Positions 910-14,049 of a DNA stretch of 64,000 nt are shown here, in pieces. Both the position numbers and the translations under genes were made by a program. Positions within the stretch are counted from its first letter, which is position 1. The number at the start of each line of letters is the position of its first letter. Under the pieces are notes generated by a model. It was not told the origin of the DNA, made no database searches, and saw only the letters and a program-made list of their open reading frames with translations. Origin of the DNA: Curvularia clavata (lineage: Eukaryota); NCBI GenBank assembly GCA_023920165.1, contig CP089274.1:4340001-4404000 (forward strand), given 5' to 3'.

Positions 910-2578
910 TTATTGTGAAAACCGAATATCCTGGCCATCGACCCAGTTACCATGTAGCCCAGCTCTTAATCGAATAGGAAGATGAATAATCGCTTGTGGT
1001 TTTCCAAACTGTCTGGTGCTTACAATATGCAGCTCGCTTGACATAGTTGAGTAATTGTTCACCAGCGCCATAACCCAGCCATCGCCCTCACCCGCATTTG
1101 GCCTCGCAATGAAGACAGGTTCTTGAACGAGGTGAGTCCGGCCGGGGAAGTATTTCTGCATGTGCATCGAATTGTAGTCAAGATAACCAATCGAGTTATA
1201 TGGTGGATGTCCCCCTCCCATTACCGGCGCAATTGCCGCGAAATCAGTGCCAAGGCTTGGGTCCATGACATCCATGAAGGCATGGCTATGCTTCTTACCA
1301 GAAGAGCGATCGTCGATACGTGGAAATTCGCAGTCCTCGTGACTGATAACCAAAGGCTCTGGCAGGTCAAGGTTCATGGACCGTGGGTCGAACGTGAAGC
1401 GAACGAGTTCTGCGGCTATTTGCTCGGGCTTAGGCGCGTTGCCATTTTCGTCAGGCCACCAGAAAAATACATTTTTGTTTGTCAAAGGAAGATCAAAAAC
1501 AATACTACCTGAATCGTCCTCGTAGGCGTTGACCGTATGACCAGGGAAGGCATTCGGAGCGCGGAACCACTTTACGTCGGATCCCGAGGCGCCATATCGA
1601 GGTAAGACGCCGAGATAGAATGGAATATTAGGATCCCACTGCCAATGTTCGCCACCTTGCTTCATACGTTCAAGCTCACAGGTCTGTGGAATAATTGGAA
1701 ACAACACCTTCGTCGCGTCAGCACTTCAGCATCTTGGTAGAGAGAGGACGGGTCGTACCCAGTTCTTCGTAAAAGCAAAATCATGGATCATTGCCACCAC
1801 CGGGGCAGCAAGCCAAACAGTTTGGTTGAACTTGCCACCAGCATCGATCGTGAAATAGCAGACGTCAGGAGTGCCATCGCCTTTTGCTTCATACCCAAAA
1901 CACAGCAGCTCCTTAGTCTCCTCGTCGAGTTTTGGATGGGCAGTGAAGGTCAAGCAGGGCAGCTGCCCATCGAAAGATTCTAAGCCAATAGTATCAAGTG
2001 ACACTGGATCCAGTGAATACGGAGGAGAATCTTCTTTACATGCCAAGAGACGGCCGTTAAAGTAAAGAACATTAGTATTGGCAGTACTTCGCACTTTGAA
2101 ATCAATGGCGTCTGTGTACTTGTTACGATACTTCCCTAGAAGAAAAGAAGAAGTCAGAAATCCCATTTGAGGTCGACGAAGGAGCACATATACCAATCAG
2201 GGCTCGTTTGGCCTCTCGTTCCCTTGTAAACTTTTCAGTCCTCACGTATCGTTGCTTGAAGTGACAACGTCCATCTTTGATCCGAAACGCGCTGATGTTG
2301 CCATCCCCATTGAACCACTATAGGTGAACACATTAGTAATGCTAGAGGCGCTGCACAAATAAAAGACCTTCGCTTACTGGATCGTTCTCGATAAATGGCG
2401 GAAATTGCGGATCTGGCATAACCCGGTAGAATGTCCCATCTATCTCGGCAGGTATTTCGCCTAAAACCTCGAGATCTTGTATCTCTCCTTCGAATTTACA
2501 TGGCTTCATGAAACCCGAAAACTGGGGTTGCTGAGGGAACGCATTGCTAACGTTGCCTGATCTGAAATGACCTGACAT
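910..2578 (-). CDS. Carotenoid-oxygenase-family stilbene cleavage oxygenase (lignostilbene-alpha,beta-dioxygenase-like), 499 aa, 4 exons
   Basis: Exons 2578-2378, 2317-2194, 2135-1759 and 1707-910 join in frame via GT-AG introns. Four Fe-ligand His motifs (FTAHPK, MIHDF, PGHT, GLHGNW), plus WFNGDG, EFPRIDDR and QEPVF. GKYRN and CKED motifs are typical of stilbene/resveratrol-cleaving members. Confidence 0.92.
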
Positions 2579-2750
2579 CGTTGGGAAGAAGATAAGATTA
2601 AATCACGGTGAGAAAAGTGTGGTCAGTTCTAATCGTGTCTCATGTACTAATAACCAGCGGTGGGGCGGGTTAAATGCTCCGAAGTCCAGAAGGAAGTGGT
2701 GCATCAGCCGCCAAGCCCGTTGTAGGTACTCATGTGGCAGCCCGACGGTC

Positions 2751-2762
2751 CTAACTCCCCGG
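2751..2762 (-). promoter_or_regulatory. Cluster promoter motif CCGGGGAGTTAG upstream of the stilbene dioxygenase
   Basis: Identical 12-mer at 5278-5289; related copies at 8258, 8332, 11021 and 11103. Confidence 0.6.
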
Positions 2763-3302
2763 CGCGTGTGGGGTGCTCCCGGAAGCCAAAGCTCCGACAC
2801 CGAAAACGCTACTGGCTGTTCATGGCTGTCAAACTTGAACATGTGGCTTTAGGAGAACGAAGTCACTTTTTCGAATGCATGGTTCTTCAGCCATTCAAAA
2901 ACGAGCTTGTTTCCTGGGTTTCACAATTCATCCCCTATATAAGCTACGTCGAGTGCCGGGAGATCTTTTTCGATTATATCTTAACAAACCATGATGCACG
3001 AAGGATATACGGATTTTGTAGGCTTCACCCCTTTTCATTCACAGTTTTCAGGTCTTTTAACTAGTTGATTTGAATGACATGATTGCTTATTCATTGAGGC
3101 GCTCCGGTTAATTAACACGATACTAGGTACAGTCAACCTGACCTTGAGAGTATGGGTAACTCTGCAAAGACGCTGAATTGATTCAAGATACATCACGTAG
3201 TTTATGCAAGCCTTCACCTTATTTACTTAAGACCCTGGACAAAGGTTGTGAGGTAGAGCTTTTCTAGCTAAACCGGCCGTTGATACTATCCTACTTGTGC
3301 TA

Positions 3303-10889: not shown

Positions 10890-11102
10890 TTTCAAAACTC
10901 GGTGGTAGATCAAGGGCTCTCATATTTTAACGTGCTATATTTCTCTGCATATAAGGTCCCCATGACATTGTCATCAGGGAAGAAGCCCCACATTTTTGGA
11001 CTCATCAGATACCATGGCGACTCGGAGTTAACAAGTGAACGATTTTATAATGTAACATAACGACACTGTAACTTAGTCGCCACGTCCAATCCGTAGCAAT
11101 TG

Positions 11103-11116
11103 GCGGGGAGTTAAGC
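11103..11116 (+). promoter_or_regulatory. Motif GCGGGGAGTTAAGC in the FAH/transcription factor divergent promoter
   Basis: Identical to 8258-8271; partial CTCGGAGTTAA at 11021-11031. Confidence 0.6.
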
Positions 11117-11340
11117 GATTTACATCCGACGGCGCAGCGGCAGTATTCGGACGTGCTAGCCCCATGGTAGGGACGAAATGCGGGGTATCATCTCCCACGT
11201 GGTAAATAAGGCACGCAGGAGCTTTCAGTCTTTAAATCCGCGGTGTGTTGTTGTAGCGCATCCACCGGGTAAGAATCATCCTTTAGCATCTCCCGACTTT
11301 GAGCATTACAGATCGGAACGACATTCCGACCTCTGGGACA

Positions 11341-14049
11341 ATGACATCTCCGGACCTCAGCGGTGATCTCCGCCCAAACGATCCCTCGACACAAGTCCAT
11401 GACAGCGCCGAAAGAAGGCCAGCGAAGAGAAATAGGGCAACAATTGCATGCACGAGTTGCAGACAACGCAAATCACGTGTGAGTGAAAGCATCCCGCGTC
11501 TGTGCTGATGAGCTGCACATCTTCGTGGTTCCGAGCTGTAGCCTTACCTCATCATGTTTGATGATTGCTGAGTGGCTAGAATAGTGTGATGGATTGCGAC
11601 CAAAATGTTCTGTTTGCAAAGATCTCAACCTTGAATGCGCATATTCTAATAATGTCACTCTGACCAAGAATTCTGTTGCCCAAGGGTTAGCCTTCCATAG
11701 TACGGCGTTGCCAGCAGTCCTCCTAATCTGACTCGATTGTAGTCTCATGGAAGCACTTGAAGCTCGGCTCACATGTCTCGAGAATGGATTTACTGGATTG
11801 TCTACCAGAGTAAGCCGGATTGAAGATGTGCAAAGCAATAGCACCACACAAACGTCCCCTGCGTCACATGCGCCTATAATCCCCTCCGATGTCCCACATC
11901 TGCAGTCTGAGGGCACTGCAAGGAACTTAGGCGATCTTGAAGATCCGGCTGATGGCATGGGCTCAATGATTTTTACGGATGAAGAAGACTTAAGATTTTT
12001 TGGTACCAACAACACTTCTAGAGTGCTACATACTGTCAGCAACTAACTAGATGATCAGGACCATCCTCCAACATAGAATTTACGCGTCGAATTTTGCAAT
12101 CAACAACTGCAATTCTGAGAAAGGCTGTATCAATGGGTAGCCCAATATCTCCAGAGGAATACACCATGGCCAGCCACATCCCGCATAAATCCCGGCCCCC
12201 ATCTCCAATATCAGTTCATGCTAACCATTCTGATACCGTCTCGATTGGAGCAGAACCATTCATACTGCCACCGCAACGAGAAACCCTCTATCTCATAGAG
12301 CTTTACTTCAGCACAACCGGTATTCTCTTCCCGTACATCGAGAAAGAAGGCTTTCTTCAGACTTATCGGCAGCTTAATTCGACCAACATCGTTTCGGTGC
12401 GGAGGCCATGGCTTGGCTTGCTCAACATAGTGCTCGCAATGGCGACAAGCGTCAATACAGGCTATGATGTAACGCTCTCTGCGCGAGAGCGTACATCTAA
12501 GTCAGATGTGTACTTTCGCCGCGCTTTTATGGTTTGTGATCGACAGATACGGCATGGCACGAGCGTTGAGATAGGTATGCAGAGACGCCCTTGCTCTTTT
12601 AGCCTGTAGCCCTGATACGATTGCCCAGTTCAACTCTTACTCTTGATGAGCCAGTACCTCCAAGGATCTGAACGTTCCATTGAGACGTGGAACATCCATG
12701 GTCTTGCTGTGAAGGCAGCTTACCAGTTAGGATTGCACTCTTCTAAGGCCCTTCAGCAGTATCCGCCTCTAGAACGCGAGATCCGCAAAAGAACATGGTA
12801 TGGATGTGTTATACTTGACAGGCAAGTACCACCAACCATTTAATGATCAACTCTAACCTGCTCAGAACACTGAGCATGACAATGGGACGACCTATCTCAA
12901 TCCCAGAGCAGTTTGTCAAGATTGAGCTTCCCCAGACGCTTCCGGGCTCACAATTAGAAGATGAAACCAGCGCACAGTTCTTCACAGCGACGATGTCAGT
13001 ATATGAAAATTCCATAGAAAAGCTCAACCTCTAACAAGCCATAGAACCCTCTACCAGATCATGGCGGATGTACTTGACGTTCTTTATGGAAGCAATCTAG
13101 GTTGCGAAGATCATGTCGATGTTTTCGAGACTGCTTCCTGCCTTCTGAAATGCGAGCAAAGATTCTTCTCGTGGCAGCGCGATCTGCCAAAACAAATATC
13201 ACTGATCAGATTAGAAGATCTGGAACAAGAACCAAACGAGTTCAAGATGATGCGGCTGCGTATCATCTTGACACTGAGGTTCCTCAATCTGCGCATACTT
13301 GCACACCGACCAATACTCTGCATGTACTTGGAGAACCTGGGAGCATCTCCGGTAGATACTTTGCAACTAGCTACACTGCGGCAGGTCGGTGCCAATAGTG
13401 TTCGGCTTTGTGTTCAGTCGGCAAACACCATTTTGAGCATCACCAGCTGGGCATCGAAACATAATAGTCCTTCTCGACATTTGCTTGGCGCTTGGTGGTT
13501 TTCACTTTACTACGGTGAGTTACTCAGAGCTATCGAATATCCTACAAAATCGAACTTAACATCGCAGCTTTTAATGCATCGCTTGTAATATATTCTGCGT
13601 TGATTATCCAGCACCAGACAAAGATGCACGACCAGCCACTGGTGATAGAAGAGTTACATCCGTCCACAGAATCCCTTCATCACGCAACAGAATGCCTATC
13701 CTCGATTTTCAAAGGAAACAGAATGGCAGATAAGTGTGTTCGGTATACTTCCGTACTCTCAAACTGGTTGTCAGTGATATGTAAGAACGTCGCTTCTCCC
13801 TAATAATATCACTTGTTAATTGAACGTGTAGATATGTCAGAAAGTAATTTGGGAACCGATATCTCTGGCTTACCTGATTATTCCTCCGAAGCATTTGGTA
13901 TACAAGGAGCTTCCTATGGTGCGCAGTCGCACGAACACTTACATTTTTACGACTCCACCGACTTACACCTGGGACTTGGCGCAGGCGAGCTCTTTAATCT
14001 AGCTGATTCTAGCTTTCTAGGTAGGTACTCGGACTCGAACATGTTATGA
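11341..14049 (+). CDS. Zn(II)2Cys6 transcription factor with fungal-specific TF domain, 9 exons
   Basis: CTSCRQRKSR|CDGLRPKCSVCKDLNLEC, GPSSN, AYQLGLH and REIRKRTWYGCVILDRTLSMTMGRP. Eight introns, one of them GC-AG (12822-12865). Confidence 0.93.

What the first reader, a model, noticed from the sequence alone, without database searches (positions are those of the whole stretch)
910..14049. Six-gene stilbene-cleavage plus gentisate ring-fission cluster with its own transporter and regulator
Seen: stilbene cleavage oxygenase, MFS, FAD monooxygenase, gentisate 1,2-dioxygenase, FAH-family hydrolase and Zn2Cys6 TF are contiguous, with two divergent promoter pairs. Known: such oxygenases cleave stilbenes like resveratrol to benzaldehydes; gentisate dioxygenase plus FAH enzymes open para-dihydroxybenzoates; clusters combining these families have been noted bioinformatically in fungi. 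Inference: a self-regulated module degrading plant stilbene phytoalexins. It may send a meta-hydroxylated product (3-hydroxy- or 3,5-dihydroxybenzoate) by para-hydroxylation to a gentisate-type intermediate, a route I do not know to be biochemically established in fungi.
Basis: partly seen in the sequence, partly recalled or inferred. Interest (0 to 1): 0.8.

Follow-up and report, generated by a model that had tools for sequence, protein, structure and literature searches.

The report
Known fungal stilbene–gentisate catabolic cluster
This is the Curvularia copy of a fungal gene cluster, already described by comparative genomics, that pairs a stilbene-cleaving oxygenase with a gentisate-type ring-opening pathway; the genes are real, transcribed and share a promoter motif, but which compound the pathway actually burns is still unproven.

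Summary
Window 910-14049 holds six contiguous, spliced and transcribed genes: a stilbene-cleavage oxygenase (SCO), an MFS transporter, a group A flavoprotein monooxygenase (MO), a gentisate-type bicupin dioxygenase (GDO), an FAH-family hydrolase and a Zn2Cys6 regulator. There are two divergent promoter pairs.

The window is Curvularia clavata: one MO exon is 100% identical to a named protein of that species. The cluster matches the published 'GC-MC' gentisate-catabolism cluster (Greene 2014), also called the 'model 2' SCO cluster (Gluck-Thaler 2018). It has the same five core genes, convergent GDO/FAH and no aldehyde dehydrogenase. So it is a new member of a known kind.

New here:
- RNA contigs from four runs confirm the introns.
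- The 10-mer CGGGGAGTTA sits once in each of the four promoter regions, with 5 exact copies in 64 kb.
- The MO clade has a mixed active-site signature. It carries the base and carboxylate-binding residues of both relatives, Pro as in the decarboxylating enzyme PcMNX1, and Trp as in 3-hydroxybenzoate 6-hydroxylase.
- The GDO keeps all the gentisate-binding residues I checked.
- MO intron 1 lacks a canonical acceptor in this assembly, and the deposited model loses a substrate-binding Gln.

The route from stilbene to a gentisate-type intermediate remains inference. Interest is modest.

The parts
910..2578 (-). Stilbene cleavage oxygenase (SCO, RPE65/CCD family), 499 aa; introns 1708-1758, 2136-2193, 2318-2377
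   Evidence: Pfam RPE65 on three exons. Best solved relative is N. crassa CAO1 5u8x, E 8e-89. Introns come from spliced RNA contigs and the frame is open. YRN, KE, EF, 4-His and 3-Glu motifs are all present. 86% identical to the B. maydis and 73% to the P. oryzae homologue.
2752..2761 (-). Candidate cis-element CGGGGAGTTA, 174 bp upstream of the SCO ATG
   Evidence: Exact match; distance.
3303..5081 (-). MFS transporter, about 537 aa; introns about 3901-3953, 4401-4451, 4760-4820
   Evidence: Pfam MFS_1 on two exons, 30 and 26 bits, below the cut-off on single exons. Weak NCBIfam Bcr/CflA efflux match, 28 bits. No Sugar_tr hit at E<=0.01. RNA contig pieces end at 3954, 4400 and 4821; the other intron ends are inferred from an open frame.
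5279..5288 (+). Candidate cis-element CGGGGAGTTA in the divergent MFS/MO promoter (198 bp from the MFS ATG, 602 bp from the MO ATG)
5881..7667 (+). Group A flavoprotein monooxygenase ('salicylate hydroxylase-like', sahG type), 507 aa by the RNA-supported splicing; introns 6229-6279 (no canonical acceptor in this assembly), 6635-6704, 6862-6948, 7105-7159
   Evidence: Pfam FAD_binding_3 and NAD_binding_8. One exon is 100% identical to P0001 of Curvularia clavata. PDB hits: 8gsm 2e-90, PcMNX1 8x38 7e-89, GsMNX1 8r2t 5e-88, 3HB6H 4bjy 2e-39. Introns, model. Active-site residues.
8187..8342 (+). GDO promoter with three copies of the element: 8187-8196 (1 mismatch), 8259-8268 (exact), 8333-8342 (1 mismatch); 324, 252 and 178 bp from the GDO ATG
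8511..9645 (+). Gentisate 1,2-dioxygenase-type bicupin, 339 aa; introns 8791-8844, 9280-9340
   Evidence: Two Cupin_2 domains. PDB 2d40 7e-36 and 3bu7 2e-30. TIGR02272 on three exons, 60+132+50 bits. His119, His121, His160, Arg127, His162, Gln108 and Asp174 (2phd numbering) are conserved. Introns; model.
9873..10889 (-). FAH-family hydrolase (fphG type, presumed acylpyruvate hydrolase), 296 aa; introns 9980-10034, 10542-10612; convergent with GDO
   Evidence: Pfam FAA_hydrolase 167 bits. PDB HpcE 1gtt 1e-33, putative fumarylpyruvate hydrolase 4maq 1e-19, maleylpyruvate hydrolase 6jvv 6e-16. Introns; model.
11104..11113 (+). Candidate cis-element CGGGGAGTTA in the divergent FAH/TF promoter (215 bp from the FAH ATG, 237 bp from the TF ATG)
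11341..14049 (+). Zn2Cys6 transcription factor (ctfG type), 745 aa; introns 11479-11584, 11686-11742, 12003-12058, 12575-12628, 12822-12865, 12995-13044, 13515-13567, 13781-13831
   Evidence: Cys6 motif split by intron 1. Zn_clus 24 bits and Fungal_trans 55.5 bits. Four introns are listed as RNA joints. Contig piece ends at 13045, 13513 and 13832 fix three more boundaries. The rest are inferred from an open frame.

Best explanation
This is the Curvularia clavata member of the published fungal 'gentisate-catabolism GC-MC' cluster, also called the 'model 2' stilbene-cleavage-oxygenase cluster. I take it to be a small regulon under its own Zn2Cys6 factor.

Proposed working, with the status of each step:
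1. Inferred from 73% identity to the homologue in P. oryzae, the species whose model 2 enzyme was assayed, and from complete motif conservation: the SCO cleaves the central double bond of 4'-hydroxystilbenes (resveratrol, piceatannol, pterostilbene). The products are 4-hydroxybenzaldehyde (or its 3,4-dihydroxy form) plus a 3,5-disubstituted benzaldehyde.
2. Inferred, with no gene seen in the cluster: an aldehyde dehydrogenase encoded elsewhere makes the benzoates.
3. Inferred from enzyme-family chemistry and active-site residues: the flavoprotein MO binds a hydroxybenzoate by its carboxylate and hydroxylates para to the phenolic OH. A meta-hydroxybenzoate (3-hydroxy- or 3,5-dihydroxybenzoate) then gives a 2,5-dihydroxy (gentisate-type) acid.
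4. Inferred from conserved iron and substrate residues: the bicupin dioxygenase opens that ring between C1 and C2.
5. Inferred: the FAH hydrolase splits the resulting acylpyruvate into central metabolites.
6. Shown as sequence, inferred as function: the regulator acts through CGGGGAGTTA, which is present in every promoter region of the cluster, its own included.
7. Unknown direction: the DHA1-like MFS moves the stilbene, an aldehyde or an acid across a membrane.

My odds: about 0.9 that the cluster is of the GC-MC/model 2 kind, about 0.65 that the MO-GDO-FAH core runs a gentisate-type cleavage, and about 0.4 that stilbene fragments are its physiological feed.
For: Gene content and order.

Published description of the same combination:
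- Gluck-Thaler 2018 preprint, sections 14, 15 and 21 read.
- Greene 2014, passages read. Its GC-MC features are convergent gdoG/fphG, no adhG, and variable sdoG and mfsG. All fit the window.

Species: one MO exon is 100% identical to a C. clavata protein.

Transcription: spliced contigs with GT..AG joints cover the genes in runs X1, X4, X7 and X11.

Synteny, read from locus tags and contig lengths:
- MO and GDO lie within 3 gene numbers of each other in 11 of the 12 species where both carry sequential tags.
- The SCO lies within 6 gene numbers in 4 of 4 species with tags (Kalmusia, Boeremia, Neocucurbitaria, P. pennisetigena).
- The SCO is on the same contig as MO or GDO in at least 10 more species.

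SCO tree of 119 rows (2 fused gene models were dropped):
- The window falls in a Pleosporales group with SH-like support 95.
- That group sits inside a set of 15 with Pyricularia and three other Sordariomycetes, support 94.

SCO motifs.

MO:
- The PcMNX1 residues Gln79, Tyr134, His247 and Tyr251 are conserved.
- The MO is tightly linked to a GDO whose carboxylate- and hydroxyl-binding residues are intact. This argues that the MO product keeps its carboxylate.

Shared 10-mer:
- 5 exact copies in 64 kb, 4 of them one per promoter region.
- 0 of 100 shuffles reach the observed 8 matches at up to 1 mismatch.
- 6 of 3000 random same-size quadruples of regions share any 10-mer.
Against: - No aldehyde dehydrogenase lies in the cluster or in the 50 kb to its right. 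The window ends 909 bp left of the SCO, so that side is unseen.
- The MO-GDO core stands without a linked SCO in several fungi. In Zalerion, Bisporella, C. sublineola and Xylariaceae sp. the SCO is on another contig. The core therefore does not need stilbenes.
- The MO's best solved relatives are decarboxylating 4-hydroxybenzoate/vanillate 1-hydroxylases. It has Pro where bacterial 3HB6H has the Gln that orients 3-hydroxybenzoate (120 of 120 clade members). The Q301P change gave 3HB6H decarboxylase activity.
- The NCBIfam equivalog cut-offs for 3HB6H and for gentisate dioxygenase are not reached. These are bacterial models, and the GDO was scored exon by exon.
- A 2026 curated database paper calls the function of the 'gentisate-like' pathway unclear and notes that it lacks a maleylpyruvate isomerase.
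- The element could not be checked in orthologous promoters, and no binding data exist.
- Three metagenome contigs with MO homologues show no GDO beside them.
- In this assembly MO intron 1 has no canonical acceptor, so the MO of this strain may be impaired.
Confidence: 0.6

Rival explanations
1. There are two functions side by side. The MO-GDO-FAH-TF core catabolises 3-hydroxybenzoate, gentisate or related plant benzoates from other sources. The SCO only detoxifies stilbene phytoalexins to aldehydes and has no metabolic hand-over to the core.
For: The core is conserved without a linked SCO in several fungi. Greene 2014 lists only fphG, ctfG, gdoG and sahG as fully conserved and sdoG as variable. 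No aldehyde dehydrogenase lies in the visible cluster.
Against: The same 10-mer lies in the SCO promoter and in the core promoters. SCO linkage is kept across Pleosporales and Pyricularia. In Boeremia an aldehyde dehydrogenase domain is fused in the gene model to the SCO, two gene numbers from the GDO.
Confidence: 0.3
2. It is a hydroquinone route. The MO is an MNX1-type decarboxylating 1-hydroxylase that turns 4-hydroxybenzoate or vanillate (from the 4'-hydroxy ring) into hydroquinone or methoxyhydroquinone. The cupin enzyme then cleaves that hydroquinone.
For: The best solved relatives are 8gsm, PcMNX1 and GsMNX1, at E 2e-90 to 5e-88, against 2e-39 for 3HB6H. Pro stands at the Gln301 position in 120 of 120 clade members. 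Q301P confers decarboxylation on 3HB6H. 4-Hydroxybenzaldehyde is the product common to the stilbenes that need a 4'-OH.
Against: Trp, as in 3HB6H, rather than Phe, as in MNX1, stands at the second discriminating position in 113 of 120. The GDO keeps Arg127 and His162; I recall from the salicylate/gentisate dioxygenase structures that these bind the carboxylate. It also keeps Gln108 and Asp174. An FAH hydrolase needs a 1,3-diketo acid, which hydroquinone cleavage does not give (family knowledge). The known fungal methoxyhydroquinone dioxygenases are homogentisate-dioxygenase homologues, not GDO homologues.
Confidence: 0.1
3. The oxygenase works on lignin-derived stilbenes or isoeugenol-type phenylpropenes (lignostilbene dioxygenase function) in saprotrophic growth, not on phytoalexins.
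For: The best NCBIfam model is lignostilbene-alpha,beta-dioxygenase, at 200 bits against a cut-off of 800. Some fungal SCOs cleave isoeugenol. Stilbenes are also built into lignin.
Against: The model 2 enzyme tested (M. oryzae) did not cleave isoeugenol. None of the four enzymes cleaved the 3'-methoxylated isorhapontigenin.
Confidence: 0.1

Closest known systems
GC-MC gentisate-catabolism gene cluster of Magnaporthe and Cochliobolus (Greene et al. 2014, PMC3914699), also 'model 2' SCO cluster (Gluck-Thaler, Vijayakumar & Slot 2018, bioRxiv 10.1101/343673)
   Same: The five core genes are the same (sco/sdoG, gdo, salicylate-hydroxylase-like MO, fumarylpyruvate-hydrolase-type FAH, Zn2Cys6 TF). 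GDO and FAH are convergent, there is no clustered aldehyde dehydrogenase, and the host family is Pleosporaceae. The SCO groups with the Pleosporales and Pyricularia sequences.
   Different: The species (Curvularia clavata) was not named in the passages I read. The transporter here is MFS_1/DHA1-like, while the A. fumigatus mfsG is described as a putative sugar transporter; I did not compare the two sequences. The promoter element and the RNA-based models are new here.
Candida parapsilosis gentisate pathway cluster (MNX2, GDX1, FPH1, HBT1, GTF1; PMC8929692)
   Same: Both combine a hydroxybenzoate para-hydroxylase, a gentisate dioxygenase, an FAH hydrolase, an MFS and a Zn2Cys6 activator that binds upstream of the cluster genes. 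Function is shown there by knockouts and EMSA.
   Different: It has no stilbene oxygenase. The Gtf1 site GGA-N7-TCC is not enriched here (1 site in the four promoter regions). I could not compare the proteins because no sequences were at hand.
PcMNX1 / GsMNX1 / 8gsm decarboxylating hydroxybenzoate 1-hydroxylases (PMC13559804)
   Same: The closest solved relatives of the MO (E 2e-90 to 5e-88). The catalytic His, Gln79, Tyr134, Tyr251 and Pro337 equivalents are conserved. PcMNX1 also converts 3-hydroxybenzoate to gentisate.
   Different: Trp stands in place of Phe395 in 113 of 120 clade members. The MO is linked to a gentisate-type dioxygenase, not to a hydroquinone-cleaving enzyme.
Neurospora crassa CAO-1 and M. 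oryzae MoSCO (resveratrol-cleaving CCD enzymes)
   Same: Same family with all iron and 4'-OH recognition motifs. E 8e-89 to CAO1 on one exon. 73% identity to the P. oryzae homologue P0253.
   Different: Activity is untested here. I could not verify that P0253 is the very protein assayed as MoSCO.

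Membership tests
GC-MC / model 2 SCO gene cluster | sco, gdo, salicylate-hydroxylase-like MO, fumarylpyruvate-hydrolase-type FAH and Zn2Cys6 TF are contiguous | tested here: met
   All lie within 910-14049 with only an MFS between them.
GC-MC / model 2 SCO gene cluster | [quoted passage not shown] | tested here: met
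   GDO (+) ends at 9645 and FAH (-) ends at 9873. No Aldedh domain in ORFs of 14-64 kb or in 3-299. The left side beyond base 1 is unseen.
GC-MC / model 2 SCO gene cluster | Proteins fall in the clade joining Pleosporaceae and Magnaporthe | tested here: met
   SCO FastTree, 119 rows: Pleosporales group support 95; set of 15 with Pyricularia support 94. Tested for the SCO only, midpoint root, no AU test.
Stilbene cleavage oxygenase (CCD family) | 4-His iron ligands, 3 second-shell Glu, and the YRN, KE and EF motifs | tested here: met
   All eight patterns were found once each (KE twice) in the 499-aa model.
Stilbene cleavage oxygenase (CCD family) | Cleaves 4'-hydroxystilbenes | not testable with these tools
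   Needs an enzyme assay.
Gentisate 1,2-dioxygenase (bicupin) | Two cupin domains; 3-His iron site; Arg127, His162, Gln108 and Asp174 (2phd numbering; residue roles recalled from the Ferraroni structures, positions checked in the alignment) | tested here: met
Gentisate 1,2-dioxygenase (bicupin) | NCBIfam equivalog TIGR02272 cut-off of 442 bits | tested here: inconclusive
   60+132+50 bits on three separate exons. The model is bacterial and the whole protein could not be submitted.
3-hydroxybenzoate 6-hydroxylase | Gln301 (orients the 3-OH), His213 base, Trp362; NF006021 cut-off of 459 bits | tested here: not met
   His and Trp are present, but Pro replaces Gln301 in 120 of 120 clade members. 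NF006021 scores 212 bits. So I do not file it as a 3HB6H in the bacterial sense, though it may still work like one.
MNX1-type decarboxylating 1-hydroxylase | His247, Gln79, Tyr134, Tyr251, Pro337, Phe395 | tested here: not met
   Five of six are conserved. Phe395 is Trp in 113 of 120.
FAH-family acylpyruvate hydrolase | FAA_hydrolase domain; hydrolysis of fumaryl- or maleylpyruvate | tested here: inconclusive
   The domain is met at 167 bits. Solved fumaryl- and maleylpyruvate hydrolases are only distant hits, 1e-19 and 6e-16. Activity is not testable here.
Zn2Cys6 fungal transcription factor | Zn_clus plus Fungal_trans domains | tested here: met
   (24 and 55.5 bits) and the Cys6 spacing.

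The most novel reading that the evidence does not exclude
The 'gentisate-like' core may be a dedicated route for the resorcinol half of resveratrol-type stilbenes.
1. 3,5-Dihydroxybenzoate is para-hydroxylated by the Pro/Trp-type MO to 2,3,5-trihydroxybenzoate (3-hydroxygentisate).
2. The GDO opens this ring. By my own chemical reasoning, the enol product can tautomerise to a symmetric 2,4,6-trioxo-diacid that has no cis/trans double bond.
3. The FAH hydrolase could therefore cut it directly to oxaloacetate and pyruvate.

This would explain why these clusters never carry a maleylpyruvate isomerase. It would also define a ring-cleavage substrate not among the eight listed for fungi in 2026. CGGGGAGTTA would be the operator of this regulon, which may reach a second MFS gene 24 kb away.
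Probability: 0.2. Interest if true: 0.65.

Novelty: new member of a known kind. Interest (0 to 1): 0.3.

Why it matters
Stilbenes are antifungal defence compounds of grasses, grapevine, pine and peanut. How fungi dispose of the cleavage products is still unknown twelve years after the cluster was first described. A 2026 curation still lists the 'gentisate-like' pathway as functionally unclear.

This window adds no new kind of system. It does give a clean, RNA-verified set of gene models and a testable operator sequence. It also gives a residue-level reason why the hydroxylase cannot be named from homology alone. Together these make the open biochemical question directly testable with three recombinant enzymes and one regulator.

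Tried and rejected
- Whole genome: none is held. Paralogous canonical gentisate genes and an unlinked aldehyde dehydrogenase could not be sought.
- RNA runs: no listed holder is on record as RNA. The four runs I laid are contigs. They show splicing but not expression level, starts or ends.
- Contig depth: depth is higher in X1 than in X4 for SCO, MO, GDO and FAH, while the TF and the left-flank gene are about equal. Contig depth is a poor measure, so I do not use this as evidence.
- Metagenome scan with MO homologue P0031: it returned 5 loci. The 3 with flanks carry MO relatives next to GH3, P450 or unknown genes. None has a cupin gene or the 10-mer. This was no help for synteny or promoter conservation.
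- The Gtf1 site GGA-N7-TCC of C. parapsilosis: 1 site in the four promoter regions, against 0.57 expected by length. Rejected as the operator here.
- CGG-Nx-CCG palindromes: no spacing reached 3 copies in the four promoter regions.
- ESM Atlas search with the MFS C-terminal exon: only unnamed or MFS_1 fungal clusters.
- Earlier findings of this scan: none.
- Literature search for the 10-mer: 203 papers hold one of the strings. None of the 10 listed titles and abstract openings concerns a fungal regulator.
- A careless intron enumeration timed out and was redone stepwise.
- I did not test HGT beyond one FastTree.

Full report
**What is there.** The window is fungal, with short GT..AG introns. 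Pfam scans of stop-to-stop frames between 910 and 14049 gave five families:
- RPE65 (910-2602, minus strand)
- MFS_1 (3303-5168, minus strand; 30 and 26 bits, below the cut-off on single exons)
- FAD-dependent monooxygenase domains (5686-7667, plus strand)
- two Cupin_2 domains (8835-9645, plus strand)
- FAA_hydrolase (9910-10554, minus strand)

The sixth gene gave no hit at first. Its Zn2Cys6 motif is split by an intron...CTSCRQRKSR | CDGLRPKCSVCKDLNLEC. Pfam then found Zn_clus (24 bits, cut-off 21) on exon 11585-11731 and Fungal_trans (55.5 bits) on 12616-12843. Its end coordinates are the stop codons of the first and last gene.

**Organism.** The C-terminal exon of the monooxygenase is 100% identical to 'hypothetical protein yc1106_01398 [Curvularia clavata]', protein P0001 of 501 aa. 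The next hits are Bipolaris victoriae and B. maydis at 85-86%. No whole genome is held for the window.

**Transcription and gene models.** No run is on record as RNA. I laid the contigs of four coded runs (X1, X4, X7, X11; four studies, three coded organisms) on window 1-16000. They skip short stretches bounded by GT..AG, or CT..AC on the minus strand, in five of the six genes. Fifteen joints are listed and 12 more are not shown. Only spliced RNA explains this.

For the MFS no joint is listed. Three contig piece ends give three of its intron boundaries.

After shifting each joint to its canonical position the frames are open:
- SCO 2578->910, 499 aa
- MFS 5081->3303, about 537 aa (the other ends inferred)
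- MO 5881->7667, 507 aa
- GDO 8511->9645, 339 aa
- FAH 10889->9873, 296 aa
- TF 11341->14049, 745 aa with eight introns

MFS/MO and FAH/TF are divergent pairs. GDO and FAH are convergent, and contigs run across both. The tool warns that this does not show a single transcript.

**What it is.** The combination is in print.
- Greene et al. 2014 (passages read) described a 'gentisate catabolism' cluster in A. fumigatus. It holds mfsG, fphG, sdoG, ctfG, gdoG, sahG and adhG.
- They also described a 'GC-MC' type in Magnaporthe and Pleosporaceae (Cochliobolus). In that type fphG, ctfG, gdoG and sahG are fully conserved, sdoG and mfsG are variable, adhG is absent, and gdoG and fphG are convergent. They proposed horizontal transfer from a Magnaporthe relative to Pleosporineae.
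- Gluck-Thaler et al. 2018 (sections 14, 15 and 21 read) call it the 'model 2' SCO cluster. They counted 35 complete and 28 partial clusters.
- They showed that the M. oryzae model 2 enzyme cleaves pterostilbene, piceatannol and resveratrol, but not isoeugenol, isorhapontigenin or pinosylvin.

The window fits every listed feature of GC-MC. No aldehyde dehydrogenase domain occurs in ORFs of at least 130 aa between 14 and 64 kb, or in the gene fragment at 3-299. The window starts only 909 bp left of the SCO stop, so that side is unseen.

**Synteny elsewhere.** No fungal genome DNA was reachable. I therefore read synteny from sequential locus tags and contig lengths in the three protein searches.
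- MO and GDO lie within three gene numbers in 11 of 12 species with comparable tags: Scytalidium, Kalmusia, Ascochyta, Boeremia, Pseudogymnoascus, Cudoniella, Exophiala mesophila, Trichoderma semiorbis, Fusarium nematophilum, Stylonectria and Zasmidium. The exception is Curvularia kusanoi, whose MO hit is 71% identical and may be a paralogue.
- The SCO is within six gene numbers of the MO in Kalmusia (013213/013215/013218), Boeremia (g525/g527/g529), Neocucurbitaria (010066/010062) and Pyricularia pennisetigena (00009/00007).
- The SCO is on the same contig as MO or GDO in at least ten further species.
- In Zalerion, Bisporella, Colletotrichum sublineola and a Xylariaceae species the SCO is on another contig.
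- Boeremia g529 is a 988-aa model with Aldedh plus RPE65 domains, so an aldehyde dehydrogenase sits next to the SCO there.
- Rasamsonia T310_2993 fuses the cupin with Zn_clus and Fungal_trans domains.

A FastTree of 119 SCO rows (two fused gene models dropped) puts the window in a Pleosporales group with SH-like support 95. That group lies inside a set of 15 with Pyricularia, Sporothrix, Neopestalotiopsis and a Xylariales species, support 94. This agrees with the published GC-MC clade. The root is a midpoint and I ran no AU test.

**The oxygenase.**
- Best solved relative: N. crassa CAO1 (5u8x), E 8e-89 on one exon. Lignostilbene dioxygenases and NOV1/2 follow.
- All eight motifs given for characterised SCOs are present in the model: four His, three Glu, and YRN, KE and EF.
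- Identity is 86% to B. maydis and 73% to a P. oryzae homologue.

**The monooxygenase.**
- Against solved structures the whole protein is closest to three decarboxylating hydroxybenzoate 1-hydroxylases: 8gsm 2e-90, PcMNX1 8x38 7e-89, GsMNX1 8r2t 5e-88. Bacterial 3-hydroxybenzoate 6-hydroxylase (3HB6H) follows at 2e-39 and salicylate hydroxylases at 5e-31 or weaker.
- Among bacterial NCBIfam models the 3HB6H equivalog is best, at 212 bits against a cut-off of 459.
- A 2026 JBC paper (passages and section 9 read) names the working residues of PcMNX1. His247 is the base, and Gln79, Tyr134 and Tyr251 hold the carboxylate.
- The same paper names two positions that separate PcMNX1 from 3HB6H: Pro337 against Gln301, and Phe395 against Trp362. 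Q301P gave 3HB6H decarboxylase activity. PcMNX1 itself makes gentisate from 3-hydroxybenzoate.
- The PDB chain index is the native number plus 3. All six named residues land on the right letter with that offset.
- The window's MO has His, Gln, Tyr and Tyr conserved, Pro at the first discriminating site and Trp at the second.
- In an alignment of the 120 listed homologues the counts are Pro 120/120, Trp 113/120, His 116/120, Gln 112/120 and Tyr251 117/120.
- The clade is thus neither a 3HB6H nor an MNX1 by these residues. What the family shares is hydroxylation para to the phenolic OH. A 4-hydroxybenzoate would be decarboxylated and a 3-hydroxybenzoate would give a gentisate.

**The ring-fission pair.**
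- The cupin enzyme's best solved relatives are gentisate 1,2-dioxygenases: 2d40 7e-36 and 3bu7 2e-30.
- In the alignment to salicylate/gentisate dioxygenase 2phd, these residues are all kept: His119, His121, His160, Arg127, His162, Gln108 and Asp174. Position 104 is Tyr. Their roles (iron ligands, carboxylate contact, 5-OH contact) I recall from the Ferraroni structures; no call gave them.
- An enzyme that still grips a carboxylate, encoded next to the MO in almost every species, argues that the MO product keeps its carboxylate. That points to a gentisate-type acid. This is inference.
- The FAH protein is a single-domain FAA_hydrolase (167 bits). Its closest solved relatives are HpcE-type enzymes. 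Solved fumaryl- and maleylpyruvate hydrolases are distant.
- No maleylpyruvate isomerase is in the cluster. A 2026 database paper (passages read) says the same of 'gentisate-like' clusters in general and calls their role unclear.

**Regulation.**
- I searched the four promoter regions (2579-3302, 5082-5880, 7668-8510, 10890-11340) for shared words. One 10-mer, CGGGGAGTTA, occurs in all four.
- The window holds 5 exact copies: 2752 (-), 5279, 8259, 11104 and 38577. There are three one-mismatch copies. Two (8187, 8333) are also in the GDO promoter and one (13513) lies on a TF splice donor.
- Shuffles expect 2.24 +/- 1.39 matches at up to one mismatch, and 0 of 100 reach the observed 8.
- The sites lie 174-324 bp from the nearest start codon.
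- As a control for having picked the word after looking, 6 of 3000 random quadruples of same-size regions from outside the cluster shared any 10-mer. Overlapping picks were not excluded, so this is an upper bound.
- The C. parapsilosis Gtf1 site GGA-N7-TCC is not enriched.
- The fifth exact copy lies about 260 bp upstream of the open frame of a TRI12-like MFS gene at 37096-38316.
- I could not test conservation in other species.

**An oddity in the MO gene.**
- The first intron as removed in all four runs (6229-6279) begins GT but does not end in a canonical acceptor in this assembly. None of the four equivalent placements is canonical.
- The deposited protein P0001 equals my translation when the next AG downstream is used instead. 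It then lacks six residues, VGAGIQ, that B. victoriae keeps and 112-113 of 120 homologues carry.
- Those six residues include the Gln that corresponds to carboxylate-binding Gln79 of PcMNX1.
- Possible explanations are an assembly error, use of the unusual site, or an impaired MO allele in this strain.

**Verdict.** The finding is real, and it is a member of a cluster kind described in 2014 and 2018. It remains untested. My two literature searches for a demonstrated route found only the 2018 preprint. Rivals that cannot be excluded are a core pathway unrelated to stilbenes and a decarboxylating hydroquinone route.

Noticed in passing
window 6229-6297: MO intron 1, as removed in RNA contigs of four runs, has no canonical 3' splice site in this assembly. 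The deposited C. clavata protein uses a later AG and so lacks six conserved residues, including the equivalent of the carboxylate-binding Gln79 of PcMNX1.
   Followed up: partly
window 38577-38586 (and MFS gene 36383-38316, minus strand): The fifth exact copy of CGGGGAGTTA lies about 260 bp upstream of a TRI12-like MFS_1 transporter gene, 24 kb from the cluster. The gene may belong to the same regulon.
   Followed up: no
window 14050-22300: About 8 kb right of the regulator has no Pfam-recognisable ORF, and RNA contig cover stops near 14557 in the four runs. Greene 2014 noted transposable elements flanking the Cochliobolus clusters. I did not look for repeat relics.
   Followed up: no
window 22312-25165 (minus strand): A HET (heterokaryon incompatibility) domain gene lies next to housekeeping genes (V-ATPase C, glycine cleavage T, Sen54, Krr1, Syf1-like, Prp31, SURF4). 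This marks the return to core genome.
   Followed up: no
P0247 (Boeremia exigua OPT61_g529) and P0227 (Rasamsonia emersonii T310_2993): These are fused gene models in public annotation: Aldedh+RPE65 and cupin+Zn_clus+Fungal_trans. They are probably merged neighbours and are useful as accidental records of adjacency.
   Followed up: partly
window 5881-6105: The MO model has about 75 residues before the FAD-binding GxGxxG that solved relatives lack. An internal Met at residue 66 is an alternative start. The contig shown for X7 begins at 5820, so the long form is at least transcribed.
   Followed up: no
GDO homologue list: The window's own GDO protein did not appear among the 120 listed hits. The Bipolaris zeicola hit is only 65% identical, while Setomelanomma, Lophium and Pyrenochaeta are about 76%. 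This suggests GDO paralogues in Pleosporaceae.
   Followed up: no
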